From: Candidatus Heimdallarchaeota archaeon
GTDB taxonomy: Archaea > Asgardarchaeota > Heimdallarchaeia > Heimdallarchaeales > Heimdallarchaeaceae
Length of the DNA: 61,500 nt
NCBI GenBank assembly: GCA_023270155.1
Contig: JAGLTB010000003.1
Coordinates: 1-61,500 of the forward strand
Direction: 5' to 3'
Under the pieces are notes generated by a model. It made no database searches, was not told the DNA's origin, and saw only the letters and a program-made list of their open reading frames with translations. Below, one piece after another: positions 10,920 through 29,329 of this stretch. Every line of letters begins with the position of its first letter. The stretch's first letter is position 1. The position numbers and the translations under genes were made by a program.

Positions 10920-11660
10920 GTGAATAAGTTGACTAAATGGAATTTTAAGGTTGTATTAGCTGGCGATGGTGCTGTTGGGAAGACTTCAATTCGAGAGAGA
11001 TTTATGGGTAAAGGATTTTCTACAGATTATCTTAAAACAATTGGAGCAGATTTTGCTAGCAAAAAAGTAGAGATTGAGGATAATCACATATCCTTCCAAA
11101 TATGGGATTTAGCAGGGCAAGAAAGTTATCAAGCTGTGCGAGGGACATTCTATAAGGGAGCAACTGCAGCGCTTATTGTTTTTGATGTTCAGGATTCTAC
11201 TACTATGACGAATATCAAGAATTGGTTGGAAGAAGCTATTAAAGGTTCAAATAATGGTATTTTAGTCTATTTTATTATTGCAAACAAAGTTGATCTAGTT
11301 GATAGCAGAAGAGTTTCAAGAGAAATGGCTTTAGATTTCTGTACTCGTATAGATGCTGAAACAGGAATTAGATTTTATTATTGTGAGACAAGTGCACTTT
11401 CCGGTCAGAATATTCAAGAAACATTCGATTTTCTAGCTCATAAACTATTAGAAGCAAATAACATTAAAATCCTCACAAAACTTCCTACAGTTGAGGGGAT
11501 TCTGGATACTAGAGAGACGAAACAAGAGGTAATGCTTTCCAATGAAGAATTTGCTTCGAAAAAGGAGTTAGAGGATATAGAAGGCAGAATCAATAAACTC
11601 GAGAAGAAACTAGACACAATGCATGCTATATTAACAAAGATTATTGAAAAAATCCAATAA
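10920..11660 (+). CDS. Rab/Ras-superfamily small GTPase with C-terminal coiled coil, no prenylation Cys
   Basis: G1 GDGAVGKT; switch I TIGADF (Rab-like); G3 WDLAGQE; G4 NKVD; G5 ETSA. The C-terminal 50 aa or so are coiled-coil-like and end in IEKIQ. Start is GTG 10920 or TTG 10929, after GGTGA at 10918. Confidence 0.9.
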   Translation: MNKLTKWNFKVVLAGDGAVGKTSIRERFMGKGFSTDYLKTIGADFASKKVEIEDNHISFQIWDLAGQESYQAVRGTFYKGATAALIVFDVQDSTTMTNIKNWLEEAIKGSNNGILVYFIIANKVDLVDSRRVSREMALDFCTRIDAETGIRFYYCETSALSGQNIQETFDFLAHKLLEANNIKILTKLPTVEGILDTRETKQEVMLSNEEFASKKELEDIEGRINKLEKKLDTMHAILTKIIEKIQ

Positions 11661-13083: not shown

Positions 13084-14562
13084 ATGAACGATTCCCCTCA
13101 AGATGAACCTCAAACATTCGCAAGCTTTCTAAATCTAGTTAAAAAACTTGAGAAAGTTGTCCAAGAAACTCCAGAACTATCCATGGGAGAGAAAGAAAAA
13201 GAGGAGGAGGCTAAAGGAATTAGTGAAGATAGATCAGCTTCTGAAGAACTTGCATCAGCACAAATAGTAAAAGAGAGTGAATTGGAAGGAGTTGAAAAAC
13301 ACACTGATAAAATAAAGAAGGAAGATGTGCAAATAAAGACAAATGGAAAAGGTAAGCTGAAAGAAAGTACAATCGAATATTTACTAAAAATAGAGGAACA
13401 ACTAATTCAGCATTATTCAGGTACAGAAGTACAGTTAGAAGATTTTTACTTCAAGATTGAAGATATAAGTGATGAACAGATAGTTAGAAAGATAAAATCA
13501 AAATTTCATTCCATGGAAAACATTTCCCTAAGGAAAAAACTCAATGTAGGATTTCCTTTTGCTTTGTTCAAAATTGATGGAAAATATAAAATCACAGTTC
13601 CTATAAGCACAGGAGAGATGGCAATACCCACATATGTGGAGGGTTCAAGAAAGCATCTTAAACTACAGTCAATTGGAACTAAAGAAATACCAACTTTAGA
13701 CTCAGATGAGATTAACATCTGGAATCAAGCAATGAGTAAGTTGCAGTTAAAAATTACACAGATACTTAATTATAAAGCAAAAGATGACCTTAGTAAAATC
13801 AATCCGGAAAACATTCAATTAGTTGAAGCGGATATTATTACAATTCAAGAATTCATAAAAGGATACGAGAAAAAAATAAAAGATGTAAAAAGCTTCAGTG
13901 TTGAAATTTACAAGTTTTTGGAAGATTTAAAACAAAATATTTCAGATGGAAAGGGGTTATGGAAGGATTTCGAAGAGTTTCTCGAAGCTTCAACAAATCT
14001 TAAAGAGCAAATAGAAAGTCTACAGAAAAAGCACCAAGAATTAAGCAAAGAGACACAGATAGAGTATCTAAAACTTAGAAAAGAACAAAGGCAAATTAAT
14101 GGAAAAACTAAGAGGTATAAGATAGAAGAAAAAAGAGGGAAGGAAATAACAAGAGAAAAGAAAAAAGAATTGGTAACAAATTTGAGAGAATTTCAAAGCA
14201 AAAAAAAGCATCTGCAAAGAGATATTGATAAAACAAAGGAAATTCAAGACACAGTTGATCTATGGAACGAAATTTTACTGACAGAGGACCAGCAAACTGC
14301 TACACAAAAAATCAGAGAAAATTATGATTTAGCTTTGTTTTCATCTATTAATGGATTGTTGGAAGAAGGAGCAAGTGAAGAGATTTTTGGCAATATAAGA
14401 GAATATGAAACATCGATTGATAAGATTACCATTCATGTAATATACATTCCAGCAACCATTTGTGAATTTCGAGCAGTTCAAAAAGAGAAAAAGATTGAAG
14501 GAAAAATAGCATACTTTAATTTAACAAAAGAAATTACCTTCTTCAAACCGACCTTAGTATAA
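13084..14562 (+). CDS. Large Lys/Glu-rich coiled-coil protein, unknown function
   Basis: 492-aa ORF with long charged helical segments and two short regions that look globular. Confidence 0.55.
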   Translation: MNDSPQDEPQTFASFLNLVKKLEKVVQETPELSMGEKEKEEEAKGISEDRSASEELASAQIVKESELEGVEKHTDKIKKEDVQIKTNGKGKLKESTIEYLLKIEEQLIQHYSGTEVQLEDFYFKIEDISDEQIVRKIKSKFHSMENISLRKKLNVGFPFALFKIDGKYKITVPISTGEMAIPTYVEGSRKHLKLQSIGTKEIPTLDSDEINIWNQAMSKLQLKITQILNYKAKDDLSKINPENIQLVEADIITIQEFIKGYEKKIKDVKSFSVEIYKFLEDLKQNISDGKGLWKDFEEFLEASTNLKEQIESLQKKHQELSKETQIEYLKLRKEQRQINGKTKRYKIEEKRGKEITREKKKELVTNLREFQSKKKHLQRDIDKTKEIQDTVDLWNEILLTEDQQTATQKIRENYDLALFSSINGLLEEGASEEIFGNIREYETSIDKITIHVIYIPATICEFRAVQKEKKIEGKIAYFNLTKEITFFKPTLV

Positions 14563-16618: not shown

Positions 16619-17680
16619 ATGGCAACTATTGAAAATATTGAAACTGACGAATTCATTTTAGACGAAAAAACCTTAAGAGAAATCGAAACCATGAAAGGTG
16701 CTAATCAATGGTCTATTGTTTGGAGACGTATCAAGAAAGACAAAATGGGGATGTTAGGTCTCTATATTGTTACCTTTCTCATACTCATGGCTTTTGTCTC
16801 ATGGATACTTCTACAACTAGACGAATGGTTAACACATGCAGGTTTACTTTATGGAGATCCAAACCTTATATCAAGTCTAAACAATCTGTATGTTGAATTA
16901 TGGATACCTGGAGTAAGCAAATCAAATCCTATTGTTTTATTCAACCATCCTACCTACCAGTTCGCTGATCAAGTAAAACTTCCACCATCATTTATTCACC
17001 CATTTGGTACAGATGCCAATGGTCAAGACATGTTATCCAGAGTTTTCTTTGGAGCAACAAATTCATTAGCTCTTGGTTTTATAGGTCAGATGACGACGGT
17101 AATTATTGGTACCGTTTTGGGTTCTATAGCAGGATTTTATGGAGGAATTATTGACGATATTTTACAAAGAGTAATCGAACTACTCTACTCTATGCCCCAA
17201 TTTATTTTAATGATCTTCATCATCGTTCTTTTCGAAGACATTCAAGTACCGGGTGGTAAGTATGCGGTAGTAGTTATTTTCTTCGCCCTTATTGGGTGGG
17301 GAGGTACGGCATTGATTATTCGGTCAAACTTCTTCTCGCTAAAAGAACAGGATTTTGTGGAGGCAGAACGGGCGCTAGGAGCGTCGGATATGAGGATTAT
17401 TTTCAAACATATTCTTCCGAATTCACTAGCACCATTGATTATTATCGTAACGCTAGGTATAGCAGGTACAATCTTTCTATTCGCAGCCTTAGCCTTCTTC
17501 GGCTTTGGTGACGCAACCATTGTTTCCTGGGGTGACGATCTTAACAAATGGCAAGATCAATTGCTAGAGTATCCGTGGATGCCCATGTTCCCGGCTTTGT
17601 TCATTTTCTTTACGGTATTAGGATTCAATCTATTTGGTGACTCTTTAAGAGATGCTTTAGATCCAAGACTGAAGGATTAA
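16619..17680 (+). CDS. Peptide/nickel ABC transporter permease (OppC/DppC type)
   Basis: EAA-like loop EAERALGASDMRIIFKHILPN and C-terminal GDSLRDALDPRL. GGTGA SD lies 4 nt upstream of the ATG. Confidence 0.9.
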   Translation: MATIENIETDEFILDEKTLREIETMKGANQWSIVWRRIKKDKMGMLGLYIVTFLILMAFVSWILLQLDEWLTHAGLLYGDPNLISSLNNLYVELWIPGVSKSNPIVLFNHPTYQFADQVKLPPSFIHPFGTDANGQDMLSRVFFGATNSLALGFIGQMTTVIIGTVLGSIAGFYGGIIDDILQRVIELLYSMPQFILMIFIIVLFEDIQVPGGKYAVVVIFFALIGWGGTALIIRSNFFSLKEQDFVEAERALGASDMRIIFKHILPNSLAPLIIIVTLGIAGTIFLFAALAFFGFGDATIVSWGDDLNKWQDQLLEYPWMPMFPALFIFFTVLGFNLFGDSLRDALDPRLKD

Positions 17681-17696
17681 GACACCTTCTTTCAAA

Positions 17697-17725
17697 CCCT
17701 TTTTTCTTTTTCAGTTTGTTTTTAG
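17697..17725 (+). terminator. Oligo-T tracts directly after the OppC-type gene (archaeal-type termination signal)
   Basis: CCCTTTTTTCTTTTTCAGTTTGTTTTT has three T5-T6 runs within 30 nt downstream of the stop codon. Confidence 0.4.
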
Positions 17726-17770
17726 TTGGAATGATTTTCTCTCCTTTTTTAATCAATTTACAGATTATAA

Positions 17771-17998
17771 CATGCTTTTTGTACATTTTTTTTGGTGTTT
17801 AAATAAGACAGTGTAAATTATACGTTGAAGGATTGTAGCTATGTACCTGTTCCATGGTGATCCTCGGGGCTACATCCAACGAACATTAAAAAGCGAACCG
17901 TAAGCATCTTTGTAAGAAGATGTGGGCGGTGTAGGAGGGGATGTGGCATCCCCATGATGTGCCCTAGGCACTTCTAAAGAATTTGTACAAAATTCATG
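17771..17998. ncRNA. Candidate structured RNA or MITE-like element (GC-rich island bounded by 15-nt inverted repeats)
   Basis: Outer repeat: 17771-17785 CATGCTTTTTGTACA against 17984-17998 TGTACAAAATTCATG (13/15 complementary). Helix A: 17830-17839 with 17869-17877. Hairpin 17897-17930 has a GUAA tetraloop. Hairpin 17937-17953 is GGGGATG/CATCCCC. Hairpin 17959-17971 is GTGCC/GGCAC. By hand count the core is about 50% G+C, within very AT-rich flanks. Confidence 0.45.
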
Positions 17999-18146
17999 TC
18001 ATAGTTTGATAAGCTCCTCTTGCTTATCATATCCTTTGGTAGACTATATTTCCAAAACCGGATGTAGACCATTCACAGGGAGGGAGAGGTTTTTATTGAA
18101 AAATTTTTGTGTATTTAAAGTAATTTGCCTATAATATATTGGGAAA

Positions 18147-18926
18147 ATGACAACTATCACAAATAAAATACATTTGGAACCTTTAACCATTGAAAGAAGT
18201 GTTATTGAAACTCCTCTCTTTTTGATCAACGGTAAACTCAGAAGGTTGGATTGGCGCAAGAACCAACACCATTTCTTCAGATTTCTTGAAGAGCTGCCTA
18301 AGATACTTAGAAGAGATGTTCCTGAGAATGTATTCAATGAAGTAATTCTTCACTATCAGAACCTTAACAATCTTTTGCTCGAGAGTCATCTCCATGATGA
18401 GAGCTTCAATAATGGAAACATGCTAATCTACTTTTTAGCTTTATTGGAACATCACACAACTCTTCATGGTAGGGAGATTCAGTTCAAGAATCTCCGACGT
18501 ATCTTTAGATTATGGGGTATTGATGATAATTTTACTTTCTATTTGCGAAGGATAGCCCAAGCTAGAGAAAGATTGGAAACCGCTGAATTACTCAAATTTG
18601 ACCCACTTAGCACCCTCGATGACATACAGAAGAAGATTAACCATCTCATTGATTATTTATCTCTTAAACTTCCTGTCAAGAATGATGATCTTGAGAGAAT
18701 TAGAGAAAGAGTTACAAAACTCCTTGACAAACGTATCATTCCCTATGCTAGTATTCAAGATGCCGGACTCACAATGATAGTTGCATCTTTCCCAGAATAT
18801 CTTGAAATTCCCGCTCTCAAGCTTTATTTCTTGTTGAATCTTAGAAAAGAGTTTAAGGTTGACTTGAATGCTCTACGTAAGAGAGTACAGAGATATCGAG
18901 AAAGACTGAAGGAAAAGAATCTTTAG
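18147..18926 (+). CDS. Hypothetical protein, possible TFIIB-core/cyclin-fold repeats without Zn ribbon
   Basis: Two helical repeats follow the TFB cyclin-repeat pattern, for example LSLKLPVKNDDLERIRERVTKLLDKRIIPYASIQDAGLTMIVASF and ...VDLNALRKRVQRYRERL. There are no Cys pairs. Confidence 0.3.
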   Translation: MTTITNKIHLEPLTIERSVIETPLFLINGKLRRLDWRKNQHHFFRFLEELPKILRRDVPENVFNEVILHYQNLNNLLLESHLHDESFNNGNMLIYFLALLEHHTTLHGREIQFKNLRRIFRLWGIDDNFTFYLRRIAQARERLETAELLKFDPLSTLDDIQKKINHLIDYLSLKLPVKNDDLERIRERVTKLLDKRIIPYASIQDAGLTMIVASFPEYLEIPALKLYFLLNLRKEFKVDLNALRKRVQRYRERLKEKNL

Positions 18927-19303
18927 AGTCTAAATGCATTGAAATGATTTTTTAGGAATGCTAATGTCTAAATTAAGTAGTATGGTAGATGTTTTATTTT
19001 ACTAGTAATCTTGTCATCATCGTTTATTTTTTTGAAGCGAAAAAAGAATAGAAAATTAAATGCTAACCAATTCTTAATCTTTTTTTACGTTTCACTTCTG
19101 CTTAGAATAAATATGATAAACTTATACTTAACACGAAAAGTTTAAATTTAATGTAATTCTGTGAGATTATCATTGTAATGGGTGTCAAGATAGAGTTTAA
19201 GGTTGCAACAACAACTTTTATAATTGTATCCACTCAGAACAAGACAAAGCGTTAAAAAGGATTTGCAAATCTTACTACAAAGGAATAGTGAAAGTGTGAT
19301 TTT

Positions 19304-21708: not shown

Positions 21709-22461
21709 ATGAGTAGAGTAAACCTTGAATCTGCAAAAAATAATATTGAAAGAATTCTTACTAGTTTAAATGAAATCCAGCAACTTCTGACAAGTAAAAC
21801 ACAAGAGATTAATTCGAAAGTTCGAGATTTTAGTGACACTTTAACTGCTTATTTCAAGCAAGCTGAAGAAAAAGATCAGCTTGTCAATCAAGAGGAAGAG
21901 AAAAAAGCAAATAACACTACTCTGCTGGATCAGGAAAGCCAAAAACTGCAAGGATTAAACCACAACAAAGATGTTCTGCATTCCGAGATTTCCAGTAACC
22001 AACGAGATATTGAACAATTATCTACTTTAATTCTAGAAAGAGAGAAACTCTTTACAGAATTAAGTGTTCAAGTTGATTCATTAAACGAAAGAATATCAGA
22101 ACTAAAGCGTAAAGATGAAGAAATTGAAGTTCTCACTCAAGCTACTTTAGATGAAACTAAAGAAGAACTAAGAAAACAAGAGATACATCACGCTGAATTG
22201 TCAACAGAGTATAATAAAATGATTTCAAGATCAAAAGCTCTCAAATATCTAGTAAAACAAGATATAGTTACTTTTCCTGAAATTCAAGTTATACGTAGTT
22301 TAACCGTTCCTGGTGTTGATAATGAGGAGAACTTGAAGAAGACCTCTGGAGTTTCAGACCAGATCATTAGAAATATTCTAACTGATTTGGATAGGAGAGG
22401 TATCATATCTTTCGATATACACACTGGTAAATTCCAGGTATTAACGGAGTTGGATATTTAG
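21709..22461 (+). CDS. Coiled-coil protein with C-terminal winged-helix domain (paralogue 1)
   Basis: About 170 aa of heptad-like sequence, followed by TSGVSDQIIRNILTDLDRRGIISFDIHTGKFQV (recognition helix plus wing). Confidence 0.55.
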   Translation: MSRVNLESAKNNIERILTSLNEIQQLLTSKTQEINSKVRDFSDTLTAYFKQAEEKDQLVNQEEEKKANNTTLLDQESQKLQGLNHNKDVLHSEISSNQRDIEQLSTLILEREKLFTELSVQVDSLNERISELKRKDEEIEVLTQATLDETKEELRKQEIHHAELSTEYNKMISRSKALKYLVKQDIVTFPEIQVIRSLTVPGVDNEENLKKTSGVSDQIIRNILTDLDRRGIISFDIHTGKFQVLTELDI

Positions 22462-22470
22462 GTGAGTGAA

Positions 22471-23223
22471 ATGATGGAAGAAAAGATGATTAGAATTTTA
22501 GAAGAATTGAAACAGGATTTTGAAGAATTAGCATCTAGAAAAACATCGGTTATTTCAACTGTCAAGATGACAATTGAAACAACTACAGATGATGTAAGAG
22601 CTATCCCCGGTTTCATAACCTCATTAGAAACAACCATACAAAACCTTCAACAAATGAACAGGGATTTAGAAGAAAAAATCATGCAAGCACAACAATCTAT
22701 TGACACTGTTACTACAGAGACTGAGATTAGTTCAAGCAATAAATCTGATTTGGAAAATACTGAGGAAAGAAAGCGAAACCAGAAAGCAGATTTGGAAGCT
22801 CAAATAGAAGATTACCAAAATAAGAAAGTTCAACTTGAAAAGGAATTCCAGGAACTCACTCAACTTGTGAATATGAAAGATAATGACTTCAATCAACTAC
22901 AGGTAACTACAAAACAAGAAATCGATGCAATTAGTCAAAAAATAAATGAAGCGAGTGTGAGACTAGAGTCAGCCAAAGAAGAAAATAAACTCATAGTCTA
23001 TTTAATGGATTCTGGACTTTTGGATGTTCCAGAAGCTGAAGTAGTTTCAATAATTGCTTCTTATCCAAATGGTTTGACAATGGCAGAAATTAAAGAAAAA
23101 GTAAGTATGGCACCAGTTAGAGTTCAGCCTACTATTAACAATCTTCTTGAAAAAGTCCTAGAACATGATCCAGCATCTGATTCTTACAGAATACTTGAGA
23201 CGATTAAGAAAGAACTGAGTTAA
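22471..23223 (+). CDS. Coiled-coil protein with C-terminal winged-helix domain (paralogue 2)
   Basis: Same architecture and length as the upstream gene. wH region: GLTMAEIKEKVSMAPVRVQPTINNLLEKVLEHDPASDSYRI. GGTGA SD at 22460-22464, with the ATG at 22471. Confidence 0.55.
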   Translation: MMEEKMIRILEELKQDFEELASRKTSVISTVKMTIETTTDDVRAIPGFITSLETTIQNLQQMNRDLEEKIMQAQQSIDTVTTETEISSSNKSDLENTEERKRNQKADLEAQIEDYQNKKVQLEKEFQELTQLVNMKDNDFNQLQVTTKQEIDAISQKINEASVRLESAKEENKLIVYLMDSGLLDVPEAEVVSIIASYPNGLTMAEIKEKVSMAPVRVQPTINNLLEKVLEHDPASDSYRILETIKKELS

Positions 23224-28666: not shown

Positions 28667-29329
28667 ATGTCCCAGAGAGAAAATCAAGGTGATGATGCTG
28701 CACTTGGTGGAGAGGTTTACCAAGATTTCACAAAGCATAGGCCATTGTCTGAAAGAGATGCATTGATTATTGAAATGTATGATGAGGGATTGTCTACCTA
28801 CGAGATAGCTGAAATACTTGAAATTAACAGACATACAGCTTCGAAAGTTCTCAAGGAAAACGAAATTCAGACAAGAACAATAGCAGATTATCATAAACTA
28901 AAACATCATGATATTGTCCACTTATTTAAGCAAGGTAAAACAAAACACGAAATTGCTAAAGAATTAAGTATAACATACTATACAGTTAGGAAAGTCTTAG
29001 AGGACAAAGGGTTAGTACTGAATAAGAAAGATAGGGAAACACTTGCCATTGCTAGATATATCCAAATGAAAAACAGGGGATATGAAAATGATGCAATTGC
29101 TATTTTCTTGGACATGACAGAGAAACAACTTAACAGACTAATTCGTAATTCAGGAGTTAATGTTTCAACAGTGAGACATAAATCTAGAAATATAGACGTT
29201 CTACCTGATATAGTTCTGCAATGTTTGAAAGGAATGACTTTATCAAAAATATCAATGAAGTACAAAGTTGATCTTGTTTTAGTAAAAGAAATTCTCTATG
29301 AATTTGGCTTATGCACTCGAAAAAAATAA
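28667..29329 (+). CDS. Protein built from four tandem helix-turn-helix modules
   Basis: Four repeats of about 45 aa: GLSTYEIAEILEINRHTASKVL, GKTKHEIAKELSITYYTVRKVL, GYENDAIAIFLDMTEKQLNRLI, GMTLSKISMKYKVDLVLVKEIL. Confidence 0.6.
   Translation: MSQRENQGDDAALGGEVYQDFTKHRPLSERDALIIEMYDEGLSTYEIAEILEINRHTASKVLKENEIQTRTIADYHKLKHHDIVHLFKQGKTKHEIAKELSITYYTVRKVLEDKGLVLNKKDRETLAIARYIQMKNRGYENDAIAIFLDMTEKQLNRLIRNSGVNVSTVRHKSRNIDVLPDIVLQCLKGMTLSKISMKYKVDLVLVKEILYEFGLCTRKK

What the first reader, a model, noticed from the sequence alone, without database searches (positions are those of the whole stretch)
17771..17998. GC-rich, highly self-complementary RNA-like element inside a split ABC operon
The 466-nt spacer after the OppC-type gene is extremely AT-rich, except for a core of about 150 nt (17830-17975) that I count at roughly 50% G+C. 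The core folds on paper into four helices. Helix 1 is GGATTGTAGC/GCTACATCC (17830-39 with 17869-77, one bulged T). Helix 2 is a 14-position hairpin (17897-17930) closed by a GUAA (GNRA) tetraloop, with a tandem AA/GG internal loop. Helix 3 is GGGGATG-TGG-CATCCCC (17937-53). Helix 4 is GTGCC-CTA-GGCAC (17959-71). The whole unit is bracketed by 15-nt inverted repeats, CATGCTTTTTGTACA and TGTACAAAATTCATG (13/15 complementary), which could be a closing helix or the terminal repeats of a MITE. GC islands in AT-rich archaeal genomes are a classical signature of structural RNA genes. I could not match RNase P, SRP, tRNA, C/D-box or H/ACA signatures.
Basis: partly seen in the sequence, partly recalled or inferred. 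Interest (0 to 1): 0.72.

Follow-up and report, generated by a model that had tools for sequence, protein, structure and literature searches.

The report
Mobile mini-element carrying a structured RNA
The GC-rich island is a 234-base jumping element, found at ten or more unrelated genome sites in Heimdall (Asgard) archaea, that carries its own promoter and a conserved folded RNA. It is most likely a stand-alone guide RNA for a transposon nuclease, but that role is not proven.

Summary
Window 17830-17975 is 50% G+C, the most GC-rich 146-nt stretch in the 61.5 kb, and the helices fold as described.

It is not a syntenic operon RNA. Two close relatives with the same oppB-oppC-ORF259-oppD-oppF locus have an intact empty site (ACAGATTATA|GTTTGATAAGC). 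The window carries a clean 234-nt insertion at 17770-18003.

Nine more copies, 84-90% identical where full length, lie in unrelated intergenic sites of other Heimdallarchaeia contigs. Each follows (T)TTATA, ends in CATGT(C/A)ATA and then runs into unrelated flank. So it is a dispersed, non-autonomous mobile element.

It is also an RNA gene:
- An archaeal TATA box (TTTAWATA) sits at a fixed 32 nt upstream of helix 1.
- Six helices are 96% paired across the copies, against 25-49% in slid controls, with 7 compensatory pairs.
- 50 G·U cells make the + strand the structured one.
- No T4+ run (oligo-T terminator) lies inside, and conservation runs to the last base.

Best reading (about 0.45): a MITE/PATE-type element carrying a stand-alone omega-RNA-like guide scaffold used in trans by a TnpB-type nuclease. 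No partner protein or parent element was found. The transposition chemistry is unresolved. There is no Rfam match.

The parts
17765..17769 (+). Target motif TTATA immediately 5' of the insertion (TAM-like). The ATA at 17767-17769 is the single copy present in the empty site.
   Evidence: The empty site ACAGATTATA|GTTTGATAAGC is identical in L001 and L014. TTATA precedes 6 of 7 copies whose left junction is visible, and ATA precedes 7 of 7. TTATA occurs at 0.0017 per position in the window.
17770..18003 (+). The 234-nt non-autonomous mobile element, inserted relative to close relatives.
   Evidence: Alignment with L001 shows a clean gap with about 95% identical flanks. Identical copies occur in L007, L009 and L012. 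Four Logan contigs start at 17974, 30 nt before 18003. Nine further copies lie elsewhere.
17777..17785 (.). Left subterminal inverted repeat TTTTGTACA. It contains the palindrome TGTACA and lies 7 nt from the left end.
   Evidence: It is conserved in all 8 copies that have a left end. The outer 6-7 nt of the left end vary: CATGC, GAAGT, AATGC, CTTAT, CAAGC, GCAGT.
17798..17805 (+). Archaeal TATA-box-like octamer TTTAAATA (TTTATATA in most copies). The predicted transcription start is about 17827-17830.
   Evidence: It is conserved at a gap-free, fixed 32 nt upstream of helix 1 in all 8 full copies. The spacing rule, a TATA box centred about 26-27 nt upstream of the start, is from established knowledge. 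The start site itself is inferred.
17828..18003 (+). Predicted structured RNA scaffold of about 176 nt, with helices P1, P1a, P2, P3, P4, P5 and a 3' tail.
   Evidence: Of 437 cells, 96.3% are paired, against 25-49% in slid controls. There are 7 pairs and 18 cells with changes on both sides. The covariation score is 0.157 against at most 0.045 in slid controls, and 0 of 500 shuffles reach it. The + strand is 96.3% paired and the - strand 85.8%. There are 50 G·U cells against 4 A·C cells. The + strand MFE is better by 9-16 kcal/mol in all 8 copies.
17830..17877 (+). P1 (17830-17839 with 17869-17877, T17834 bulged), enclosing hairpin P1a (17844-17848 with 17855-17859).
   Evidence: The pair at columns 73/103 switches between C-G (3 copies) and A-U (5 copies). 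The P1a stem is kept while its loop varies.
17897..17930 (+). P2: an outer 5-bp helix, a purine-rich AA/GG internal loop, an inner 8-bp helix and a tetraloop.
   Evidence: Five pairs have changes on both sides. The inner stem is GCATCTTT/GAAGATGT in the window, GCATTCTC/GGGAGTGT in L021, and GCCTTAC/GTAAGGT in L017 and L019.
17937..17953 (+). P3: GGGGATG-TGG-CATCCCC.
   Evidence: It is invariant except for one pair that is U·G in 9 copies and U-A only in the window. U·G is a wobble pair only on the + strand.
17956..17974 (+). P4: GA-T-GTGCC-CTA-GGCAC-T-TC.
   Evidence: The loop-closing pair is C-G in 4 copies and U-A in 4 copies.
17979..17995 (+). P5, the right-end hairpin GAATTT-GTACA-AAATTC. 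It contains the right subterminal repeat TGTACAAAA (17984-17992).
   Evidence: It is 100% paired. L033 keeps it through two G·U wobbles.
17996..18003 (+). Invariant 3' tail ATGTCATA that ends the element. Its last five bases plus the preceding one read TCATA, a TEM-like mimic of the TTATA target.
   Evidence: All ten copies end in CATGT(C/A)ATA and then diverge completely.
18004..18023 (+). Flank that read-through transcription would append to the RNA. It would be the guide if this is an omega-type RNA. Inferred only.
   Evidence: There is no T4+ run inside 17828-18003. The first T4+ run downstream lies 16 to more than 100 nt away and differs between copies.

Best explanation
Window 17770-18003 is one copy of a short, non-coding, non-autonomous mobile element family of Heimdallarchaeia. 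A transposase encoded elsewhere inserted it immediately 3' of a TTATA motif in the oppC-ORF259 spacer, after this lineage split from its closest sampled relatives.

The element is built around an RNA gene. An internal archaeal TATA box fires rightwards at about 17828. The product is a scaffold of about 176 nt with six conserved helices. The scaffold runs to the last base of the element and has no terminator, so the transcript continues into whatever DNA lies to the right.

This is the layout of a transposon right-end guide RNA (omega-RNA or reRNA): a conserved scaffold inside the element and a variable 3' guide supplied by the flank. I therefore propose that the element is a MITE/PATE-like carrier of a stand-alone omega-type RNA. 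A TnpB-family nuclease encoded elsewhere in the genome would load it in trans. It would direct that nuclease to TTATA-adjacent empty sites that match the flank, which would favour retention and spread of the element.

Shown here: the insertion, the dispersed copies, the target motif, the conserved promoter-like box, the + strand structure with covariation, and the absence of a terminator.

Inferred only: transcription, the guide function, the protein partner and the transposase type.
For: Insertion:
- Flanks are about 95% identical to L001, with a clean 234-nt gap.
- The empty site is identical in L001 and L014.
- The spacers of P0006 and P0007 are of the empty-site length.

Repeat family:
- Five copies came from a metagenome scan.
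- Four more loci came from spurious ORFs called across the element.
- The neighbouring genes are unrelated housekeeping genes.
- Four independent Logan assemblies break exactly k-1 = 30 nt before the right end.

Target asymmetry: the 5' flank is (T)TTATA in 6 of 7 copies, and the 3' flank shows no consensus.

RNA:
- Structure statistics and strand test.
- Conserved TATA box at fixed spacing.
- No T4+ run inside the RNA region, and variable distance to the first downstream T-run.
- Frameshifting indels between copies and no conserved ORF.

Precedent:
- PATEs often encode omega-RNAs that TnpB proteins encoded elsewhere must act on in trans (PMC10055086).
- Stand-alone mobilised omega-RNAs exist.
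- TnpB is associated with Y1, serine, DDE/IS630 and Asgard Cas1 transposases, and its 3' end usually lies within 250 bp of the transposon end (PMC10691335).
- More than 65% of Asgard genomes carry IS200/IS605 elements (PMC13343696).
Against: No TnpB, IscB or transposase lies in the window or next to any copy.

No parent element with a homologous right end was found. The covariance model of the 3' domain found only the ten known copies in about 250 kb of held DNA. The pseudo-peptide search returned no long protein.

The left end has no conserved hairpin of its own, as IS200/IS605 ends normally do. Instead the two ends share a 9-bp inverted core, which is more MITE-like.

ATA on both sides could equally be a 2-3 bp target duplication or a recombinase core.

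No expression data are available. No Rfam family matches, although to my knowledge TnpB omega-RNAs are poorly represented there.

Copy number within any one genome was not measured.
Confidence: 0.45

Rival explanations
1. It is a mobile RNA gene of another kind. The element is a non-autonomous transposon whose promoter-driven structured RNA does something other than guide a TnpB-type nuclease. Examples would be a trans-acting regulatory or antisense RNA, an RNA antitoxin, an RNA cofactor of its own transposase, or a protein-sequestering RNA.
For: Everything that supports mobility and a selected + strand RNA is neutral about function. Long invariant unpaired stretches (GTGTAGGAGG, CATGAT, CTTCTAAAG, ATGTCATA) and a conserved purine-rich internal loop suggest protein binding or tertiary contacts. 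No TnpB link was found.
Against: Conservation running exactly to the element boundary, the rightward promoter and the lack of any internal terminator are specifically expected for a flank-reading guide RNA. An ordinary small RNA gene does not need them. A bridge or seek RNA of IS110/IS1111 type is unlikely, because the RNA loops are conserved while the flanks share only TTATA.
Confidence: 0.27
2. It is an ordinary MITE with no RNA function. A DDE transposase (for example IS630-like with a TA duplication, or IS5-like with a 3-bp one) recognises the TGTACA-containing inverted repeats. The internal hairpins are DNA palindromes or chance features, and the apparent covariation reflects descent of sub-families.
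For: It is short and dispersed. It has inverted repeats 13/15 complementary in this copy. ATA lies on both sides and only once in the empty site. The - strand also folds better than shuffles, z = -4.0. With only ten related sequences, the shuffle controls can be beaten by phylogeny alone.
Against: The outermost 6-7 nt of the left end are not conserved between copies that clearly transposed, and L024 and L021 share GAAGT at different loci. The ends are off register by one base. Target preference is one-sided. There are 50 G·U cells against 4 A·C cells, and the + strand is more stable in every copy. Slid controls, which keep relatedness, fall to 25-49% paired with 0-3 compensatory pairs against 7. 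The TATA box is conserved at fixed spacing. The right two-thirds is far more conserved than the left end.
Confidence: 0.18
3. It is a resident, syntenically conserved structural or cis-regulatory RNA of the opp operon (riboswitch, leader or processing site), and the relatives have lost it by deletion.
For: It lies inside an operon, in the same orientation as the genes.
Against: It is absent from the orthologous spacer of every relative at 44-94% protein identity. The same sequence occurs next to unrelated genes and in both orientations relative to them, 5 co-directional and 4 convergent. The gap boundaries coincide with the family's ends.
Confidence: 0.02

Closest known systems
Stand-alone or PATE-borne omega-RNAs of IS200/IS605-IS607 (OMEGA) systems (Altae-Tran et al. 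2021 as cited in PMC10691335; Meers et al. 2023, PMC10055086)
   Same: A protein-less, mobilised element a few hundred nt long. The structured RNA scaffold abuts the right end and is oriented to read into the flank. Insertion is 3' of a short T-rich motif (TAM-like TTATA). The right end terminates in a similar motif (TEM-like TCATA). A subterminal hairpin sits 8 nt from the right cleavage point. A protein would have to act in trans.
   Different: No cognate TnpB or TnpA was identified. There is no hairpin in the left end, and the ends share an inverted 9-bp core. The element carries its own TATA-box promoter. No sequence or Rfam similarity to any described omega-RNA was found. The host is Heimdallarchaeia, where I found no such element described in the held literature.
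Classical archaeal and bacterial MITEs (for example Sulfolobus SM/SMN elements, Neisseria Correia elements; from my own knowledge)
   Same: Size of about 230 nt, intergenic dispersed copies, inverted repeats near the ends, a short A/T flank repeat, and absence of coding capacity. Correia elements are also transcribed and structured.
   Different: The terminal nucleotides of the left end are not conserved. Target preference is one-sided. The interior is under RNA-level selection, with strand-specific wobble pairs and a conserved promoter.
TnpB transposons with DDE/IS630 transposases and symmetrical ends, and eukaryotic Fanzor elements (PMC10691335)
   Same: Inverted ends combined with a right-end guide RNA. 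TA-containing target. Phylogenetic neighbourhood of Asgard archaea and eukaryotes.
   Different: Those elements encode TnpB or Fanzor and a transposase. This one encodes no protein, and no such parent was found.
GC-rich non-coding RNA genes found as GC islands in AT-rich archaea (Klein, Misulovin and Eddy 2002; Rfam Hgc families; from my own knowledge)
   Same: Detected by the same signature: a G+C island in AT-rich DNA with a strong predicted structure.
   Different: No Rfam Hgc or other family matches. This one is a mobile, multi-locus element rather than a fixed single-copy gene.

Membership tests
MITE (DDE-mobilised, TIR plus TSD) | Short, non-coding, present at several unrelated loci | tested here: met
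   234 nt. Ten independent insertions with unrelated neighbours. No conserved ORF, and frameshifting indels between copies.
MITE (DDE-mobilised, TIR plus TSD) | Terminal inverted repeats conserved to the very tips | tested here: inconclusive
   A 9-bp subterminal core is conserved. The outer 6-7 nt of the left end vary between copies, and the two ends are one base out of register.
MITE (DDE-mobilised, TIR plus TSD) | Target-site duplication generated on insertion | tested here: inconclusive
   ATA lies on both sides and once in the empty site. It is always ATA, and the flanks are asymmetric. This is equally compatible with a TAM/TEM pair or a recombinase core.
MITE (DDE-mobilised, TIR plus TSD) | Autonomous parent IS with matching ends | not testable with these tools
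Nothing was found in viral, plasmid or phage collections.
IS200/IS605-type PATE | Insertion 3' of a specific 4-5 nt motif without duplication, and a right end closing with a related motif | tested here: met
   The 5' flank is TTATA in 6 of 7 copies and GATA in 1 of 7. The right end is TCATA in 9 of 10 and TAATA in 1 of 10. The 3' flank has no consensus.
IS200/IS605-type PATE | Subterminal imperfect hairpin in BOTH the left and the right end | tested here: not met
   The right-end hairpin at 17979-17995 is conserved. The left end has TTTTTGTACATTTTT, which cannot fold back on itself, and no other conserved hairpin lies in 17770-17829 (by inspection).
IS200/IS605-type PATE | Y1 (HUH) TnpA in the same genome | not testable with these tools
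   No whole genome was accessible. Background only: more than 65% of Asgard genomes carry IS200/IS605 (PMC13343696).
Omega-RNA (TnpB/IscB guide RNA) | Conserved structured scaffold that ends at the transposon boundary, on the strand reading outward | tested here: met
   Helices with covariation on the + strand. Invariant sequence up to 18003, then unrelated flank.
Omega-RNA (TnpB/IscB guide RNA) | Transcript continues into the flank, which supplies the guide | tested here: inconclusive
   The promoter-like TATA box points rightwards, and no T4+ run lies inside the RNA region. No RNA data.
Omega-RNA (TnpB/IscB guide RNA) | Cognate TnpB/IscB locus with a homologous scaffold, and RNA-protein function | not testable with these tools
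   None was found in the window, the loci or the protein search. Whole genomes were not searchable. Biochemistry is required.
Any Rfam 15 family or tRNA/tmRNA | Covariance-model hit at or near the gathering score | tested here: not met
   There were 0 hits at gathering thresholds in the whole window, 0 hits at E<=10 in 17650-18160, and ARAGORN found 0.
IS110/IS1111 bridge RNA or seekRNA | Encoded beside a DEDD recombinase, with loops complementary to a long (over 10 nt) specific target | tested here: not met
   There is no adjacent recombinase. The flanks of the ten copies share only TTATA, while the RNA loops are conserved.
Syntenic cis-regulatory RNA of the opp operon | Conserved at the orthologous position in relatives | tested here: not met
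   It is absent from L001, L014, L002-L006 and the P0006 and P0007 contigs.

The most novel reading that the evidence does not exclude
Heimdallarchaeia, archaea close to the root of eukaryotes, harbour a family of self-promoted, protein-less mobile RNA genes whose RNA is the functional payload. One form of this reading is a programmable guide that is copied around the genome to multiply the target range of an RNA-guided effector not yet recognised (not a canonical IS605 TnpB). Another is an RNA that itself takes part in its own transposition. This would be a new class of RNA-centred mobile element rather than a decayed IS.
Probability: 0.15. Interest if true: 0.8.

Novelty: new member of a known kind. 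Interest (0 to 1): 0.55.

Why it matters
If the RNA is a stand-alone guide, this family gives a compact scaffold of about 176 nt and a candidate TAM (TTATA). Both can be used to search Asgard genomes for a matching RNA-guided nuclease. That lineage matters for the TnpB-to-Fanzor transition.

It also adds an uncatalogued structured RNA family to a phylum with almost no described non-coding RNAs or small mobile elements.

There are two practical consequences:
- The element breaks short-read assemblies. Four contigs end inside it.
- It generates spurious 'hypothetical proteins' in public Heimdall MAG annotations (P0020-P0023).

For the window itself, the result shows that the GC island is not part of opp operon regulation.

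Tried and rejected
- **Rfam and tRNA:** Rfam at gathering thresholds on the whole window, Rfam at E<=10 locally, and ARAGORN all found nothing.
- **Repeats within the window:** there is no second copy in the 61.5 kb, and the covariance model finds none.
- **Genome-contig scan:** I used the 20-mer GGAGGGGATGTGGCATCCCC and got only a chance hit in a Bryobacterales MAG. This was a poor choice in hindsight. The window copy has a private A at 17948 where the family has G, so the scan says nothing about copy number.
- **Metagenome scan:** six of the eleven hits to the right-end 20-mer were unrelated.
- **Other collections:** three viral-contig scans plus plasmid and phage blastn gave nothing real.
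- **Search for an associated protein:** neighbours of all copies are unrelated housekeeping genes. The ten ORFs I scanned (six of TnpB size) and the operon ORFs include no transposase or TnpB.
- **Parent TnpB whose 3' coding end overlaps the RNA:** the six-frame pseudo-peptide profile found only four short spurious ORFs.
rejected, with 0 compensatory pairs and the outer pairs broken in most copies.
- **C/D-box reading:** AUGAUGU at 17954-17960 resembles a C box, but the element has no CUGA D box (by inspection).
- **Bridge or seek RNA reading:** rejected because the targets share only TTATA.
- **Literature:** I found no description of this element or of Asgard MITEs.

Full report
**1. The observation**

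The spacer between the oppC-type gene (16619-17680) and the next ORF (18147-18926) is 466 nt. Inside it, 17830-17975 has 50% G+C. The two arms of the spacer have 26% and 31%, and the whole window has 34%. It is the most GC-rich 146-nt stretch in the 61.5 kb, and only 1e-4 of all such windows reach that value.

The + strand of 17771-17998 folds at -76.5 kcal/mol, z = -5.3 against dinucleotide shuffles. The - strand gives z = -4.0. The core alone gives z = -2.6 and -1.9. Rfam finds nothing, either at gathering thresholds on the whole window or at E<=10 locally, and ARAGORN finds nothing.

**2. It is an insertion, not a resident operon RNA**

The 259-aa ORF downstream has 19 homologues, all in Heimdallarchaeia or Asgard assemblies. 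The gene order oppB-oppC-ORF259-oppD-oppF is conserved in relatives at 44-94% protein identity. Their oppC-ORF259 spacers, however, are only 125-292 nt.

Alignment with the closest relative, L001 (94%), shows flanks about 95% identical and one clean 234-nt gap. L001 and a second relative, L014, both read ACAGATTATA|GTTTGATAAGC at that point. The window reads ...GATTATA[ACATGCTTTTTGTACA...TGTACAAAATTCATGTCATA]GTTTGA....

The unit is therefore 17770-18003, with one ATA in the empty site and ATA on both sides of the filled one. The 'split' operon is ancestral and was not caused by the element.

**3. It is a dispersed repeat**

There is no second copy in the window. Even so, four Logan contigs from four different sequencing runs all begin at window 17974. 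That is exactly 30 nt before 18003. To my knowledge Logan assemblies use k = 31, so this is what a de Bruijn graph branch at the first base after a repeat looks like.

A metagenome scan with the right-end 20-mer returned five true copies in different flanks: L024, L018, L021, L017 and L019. The other six hits were unrelated.

My genome-contig scan was wasted.

To reach other collections I translated the element in six frames and searched a profile of the concatenated pseudo-peptides. This found four short 'hypothetical proteins' called across copies in Heimdall MAGs. Their contigs gave four more insertions: L027-L030 (one locus), L031, L032 and L033.

The total is ten independent insertions, 84-90% identical to the window where full length. 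They lie beside unrelated genes: ETF, GNAT, methylene-H4MPT dehydrogenase, DinB, H+-PPase, peptidase M29, sulfotransferase and others. Five are co-directional with the downstream gene and four are convergent.

Every copy ends in CATGT(C/A)ATA and then diverges completely. Every visible left junction reads flank-ATA|A, followed by 5 variable bases and then TTTTTGTAYA. The 5' flank is TTATA in 6 of 7 copies. The 3' flank has no consensus.

**4. It is also an RNA gene**

Across the ten copies (alignment A5) I scored six helices. In window coordinates they are:
- P1: 17830-39 with 17869-77
- P1a: 17844-48 with 17855-59
- P2: 17897-17901 with 17926-30, and 17904-11 with 17916-23
- P3: 17937-43 with 17947-53
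- P4: 17956-63 with 17967-74
- P5: 17979-84 with 17990-95

Of 437 cells, 96.3% are paired. When the 3' partners are slid by 1-3 columns, a control that keeps relatedness, only 25-49% are paired. Seven pairs (18 cells) have changes on both sides, against 0-3 pairs in the slid controls. The covariation score is 0.157 against at most 0.045, and 0 of 500 shuffles reach it.

The inner stem of P2 is rewritten twice: GCATCTTT/GAAGATGT in the window, GCATTCTC/GGGAGTGT in L021, and GCCTTAC/GTAAGGT in L017 and L019.

Strand matters. There are 50 G·U cells on the + strand and only 4 A·C cells. Pairing falls to 85.8% on the - strand. The + strand MFE is better by 9-16 kcal/mol in all eight full copies.

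Upstream, an archaeal TATA-like octamer is conserved at a gap-free, fixed 32 nt before P1. It reads TTTAAATA at 17798-17805 in the window and TTTATATA in most copies. With the usual spacing of about 26-27 nt from the centre of the box (established knowledge), the start falls at about 17827-17830, the foot of P1.

No T4+ run lies anywhere in 17828-18003. The first T4+ run downstream lies 16 to more than 100 nt into the flank and differs from copy to copy. Copies differ by frameshifting indels and share no ORF.

It has 0 compensatory pairs, and only the 9-bp core TTTTGTACA/TGTACAAAA survives. Its left arm lies upstream of the TATA box. I take it as a DNA-level end repeat.

**5. How it most likely works**

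Shown here:
- A protein-less element that has moved to many sites.
- Insertion 3' of TTATA.
- A rightward promoter-like box.
- A selected + strand scaffold that is conserved to the last base.
- No internal terminator.

Inferred: the transcript runs into the flank and so acquires a locus-specific 3' extension.

That architecture defines transposon right-end guide RNAs (omega-RNAs). Protein-less PATE-like elements and stand-alone mobilised omega-RNAs acting in trans are documented (PMC10055086; PMC10691335). TnpB occurs with Y1, serine, DDE/IS630 and Asgard Cas1 transposases, and its 3' end usually lies within 250 bp of the transposon end. IS200/IS605 elements are reported in more than 65% of Asgard genomes (PMC13343696).

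I therefore rank 'MITE/PATE-type carrier of a stand-alone omega-type guide scaffold' first, at about 0.45.

The weak points are plain:
- No TnpB or transposase lies in the window or beside any copy.
- No parent element was found.
- There are no expression data.
- The left end lacks the hairpin that Y1 transposases use.

The transposition chemistry is unresolved. Three features argue against a symmetric DDE cut-and-paste mechanism: the one-sided target, the TTATA/TCATA pair, and the variable left tip. The shared inverted 9-mer and the ATA on both sides would fit an IS630-like DDE enzyme or a site-specific recombinase core.

**6. Rivals**

- A mobile RNA with another function: 0.27.
- A plain MITE whose structure is incidental: 0.18. 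The strand-specific wobble pairs, the slid controls and the conserved promoter argue against it.
- A resident operon RNA lost by deletion in relatives: 0.02. The empty sites and the dispersed copies refute it.
- A bridge or seek RNA does not fit, because the targets share only five bases.

**7. Comparison and novelty**

The element matches no Rfam family. It was not found in plasmid, phage or viral collections. I found no description of it, or of any Asgard MITE, in the held literature.

In kind it is closest to PATE-borne or stand-alone omega-RNAs and to transcribed MITEs. I class it as a new member of a known kind, with membership of the omega-RNA class unproven (see the membership table). 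Interest is moderate (0.55): a clean, well-supported new mobile structured-RNA family in a lineage of high evolutionary interest, but without its protein partner.

**8. Side observations**

ORF259, which sits inside the opp operon in all relatives, gives a confident AlphaFold model (pLDDT 86). Its best PDB matches are weak hits to cyclins and TFIIB/TFB, which have two cyclin-box repeats (E 0.025-0.1, TM about 0.35). There is no sequence-level support. Other items are listed under 'noticed in passing'.

Noticed in passing
window 18147-18926 (+): The 259-aa ORF between oppC and oppD is conserved at this position in all Heimdall relatives (44-94% identity) and has no Pfam or NCBIfam hit. Its AlphaFold model is confident (pLDDT 86, pTM 0.84) and all-helical after a short N-terminal hairpin. 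The best PDB matches are weak hits to cyclins D, K, T and C and to archaeal TFB/TFIIB core, which have two cyclin-box repeats (E 0.025-0.1, TM 0.33-0.38). A profile search of PDB sequences gave nothing meaningful. This could be a cyclin-box or TFB-like protein embedded in a transporter operon.
   Followed up: partly
window 18927-19303: The second spacer (ORF259 to oppD, 377 nt) contains about 125 nt (roughly 18926-19049) with no counterpart in relative L014. BLAST pieces on either side overlap by about 16 nt in L014. It may be a second small insertion or deletion. It is not related to the element studied.
   Followed up: no
loci L003 1601-3220; gene map of the P0007 contig; L001 4876-5753: The ORF259-oppD junction is a variable spot in relatives. 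L003 has a 539-aa ORF with no Pfam hit there. The P0007 contig has three extra ORFs (206, 231 and 199 aa). L001 has a 293+ aa ORF starting 96 nt after ORF259.
   Followed up: no
P0020-P0023; loci L027 5001-5168, L031 10001-10333, L032 916-1113, L033 2575-2733: Public Heimdall MAG annotations contain 'hypothetical proteins' of 52-110 aa that are simply open frames across copies of this non-coding element, on either strand. They are annotation artefacts.
   Followed up: yes
window 21709-22461 and 22462-23223 (+): Two tandem ORFs of about 250 aa follow oppF directly. They have only weak coiled-coil-type hits (SMC, Rad50, archaea-specific SMC-related protein; E 1e-3 to 1e-5). The pair is conserved after oppF in L004, L006 and L007.
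   Followed up: no
window 28667-29329 (+): A 220-aa protein has HTH_23, GerE and resolvase-type HTH_7 domains and a sub-threshold TnsD (Tn7 target selector) match. It is the only transposon-flavoured hit among the ORFs scanned, and it has no detectable link to the element.
   Followed up: no
window 17902-17903 with 17924-17925: The AA/GG purine-rich internal loop of P2 is kept in 8 of 10 copies and becomes AAA/GAA in the L017 and L019 sub-family while both flanking helices change sequence. It may be a protein-binding motif. Separately, AUCCUC (17860-17865) could pair with GGGGAU (17937-17942) as an alternative to P3. Neither point was tested.
   Followed up: no
window 10920-11660 (+); 13084-14562 (+): An Arf/Ras/Roc-family small GTPase gene, a typical Asgard eukaryotic-signature protein, lies 7 kb upstream (via L007). 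A conserved 492-aa ORF with no family hit precedes the ABC genes, where a substrate-binding protein would be expected.
   Followed up: no
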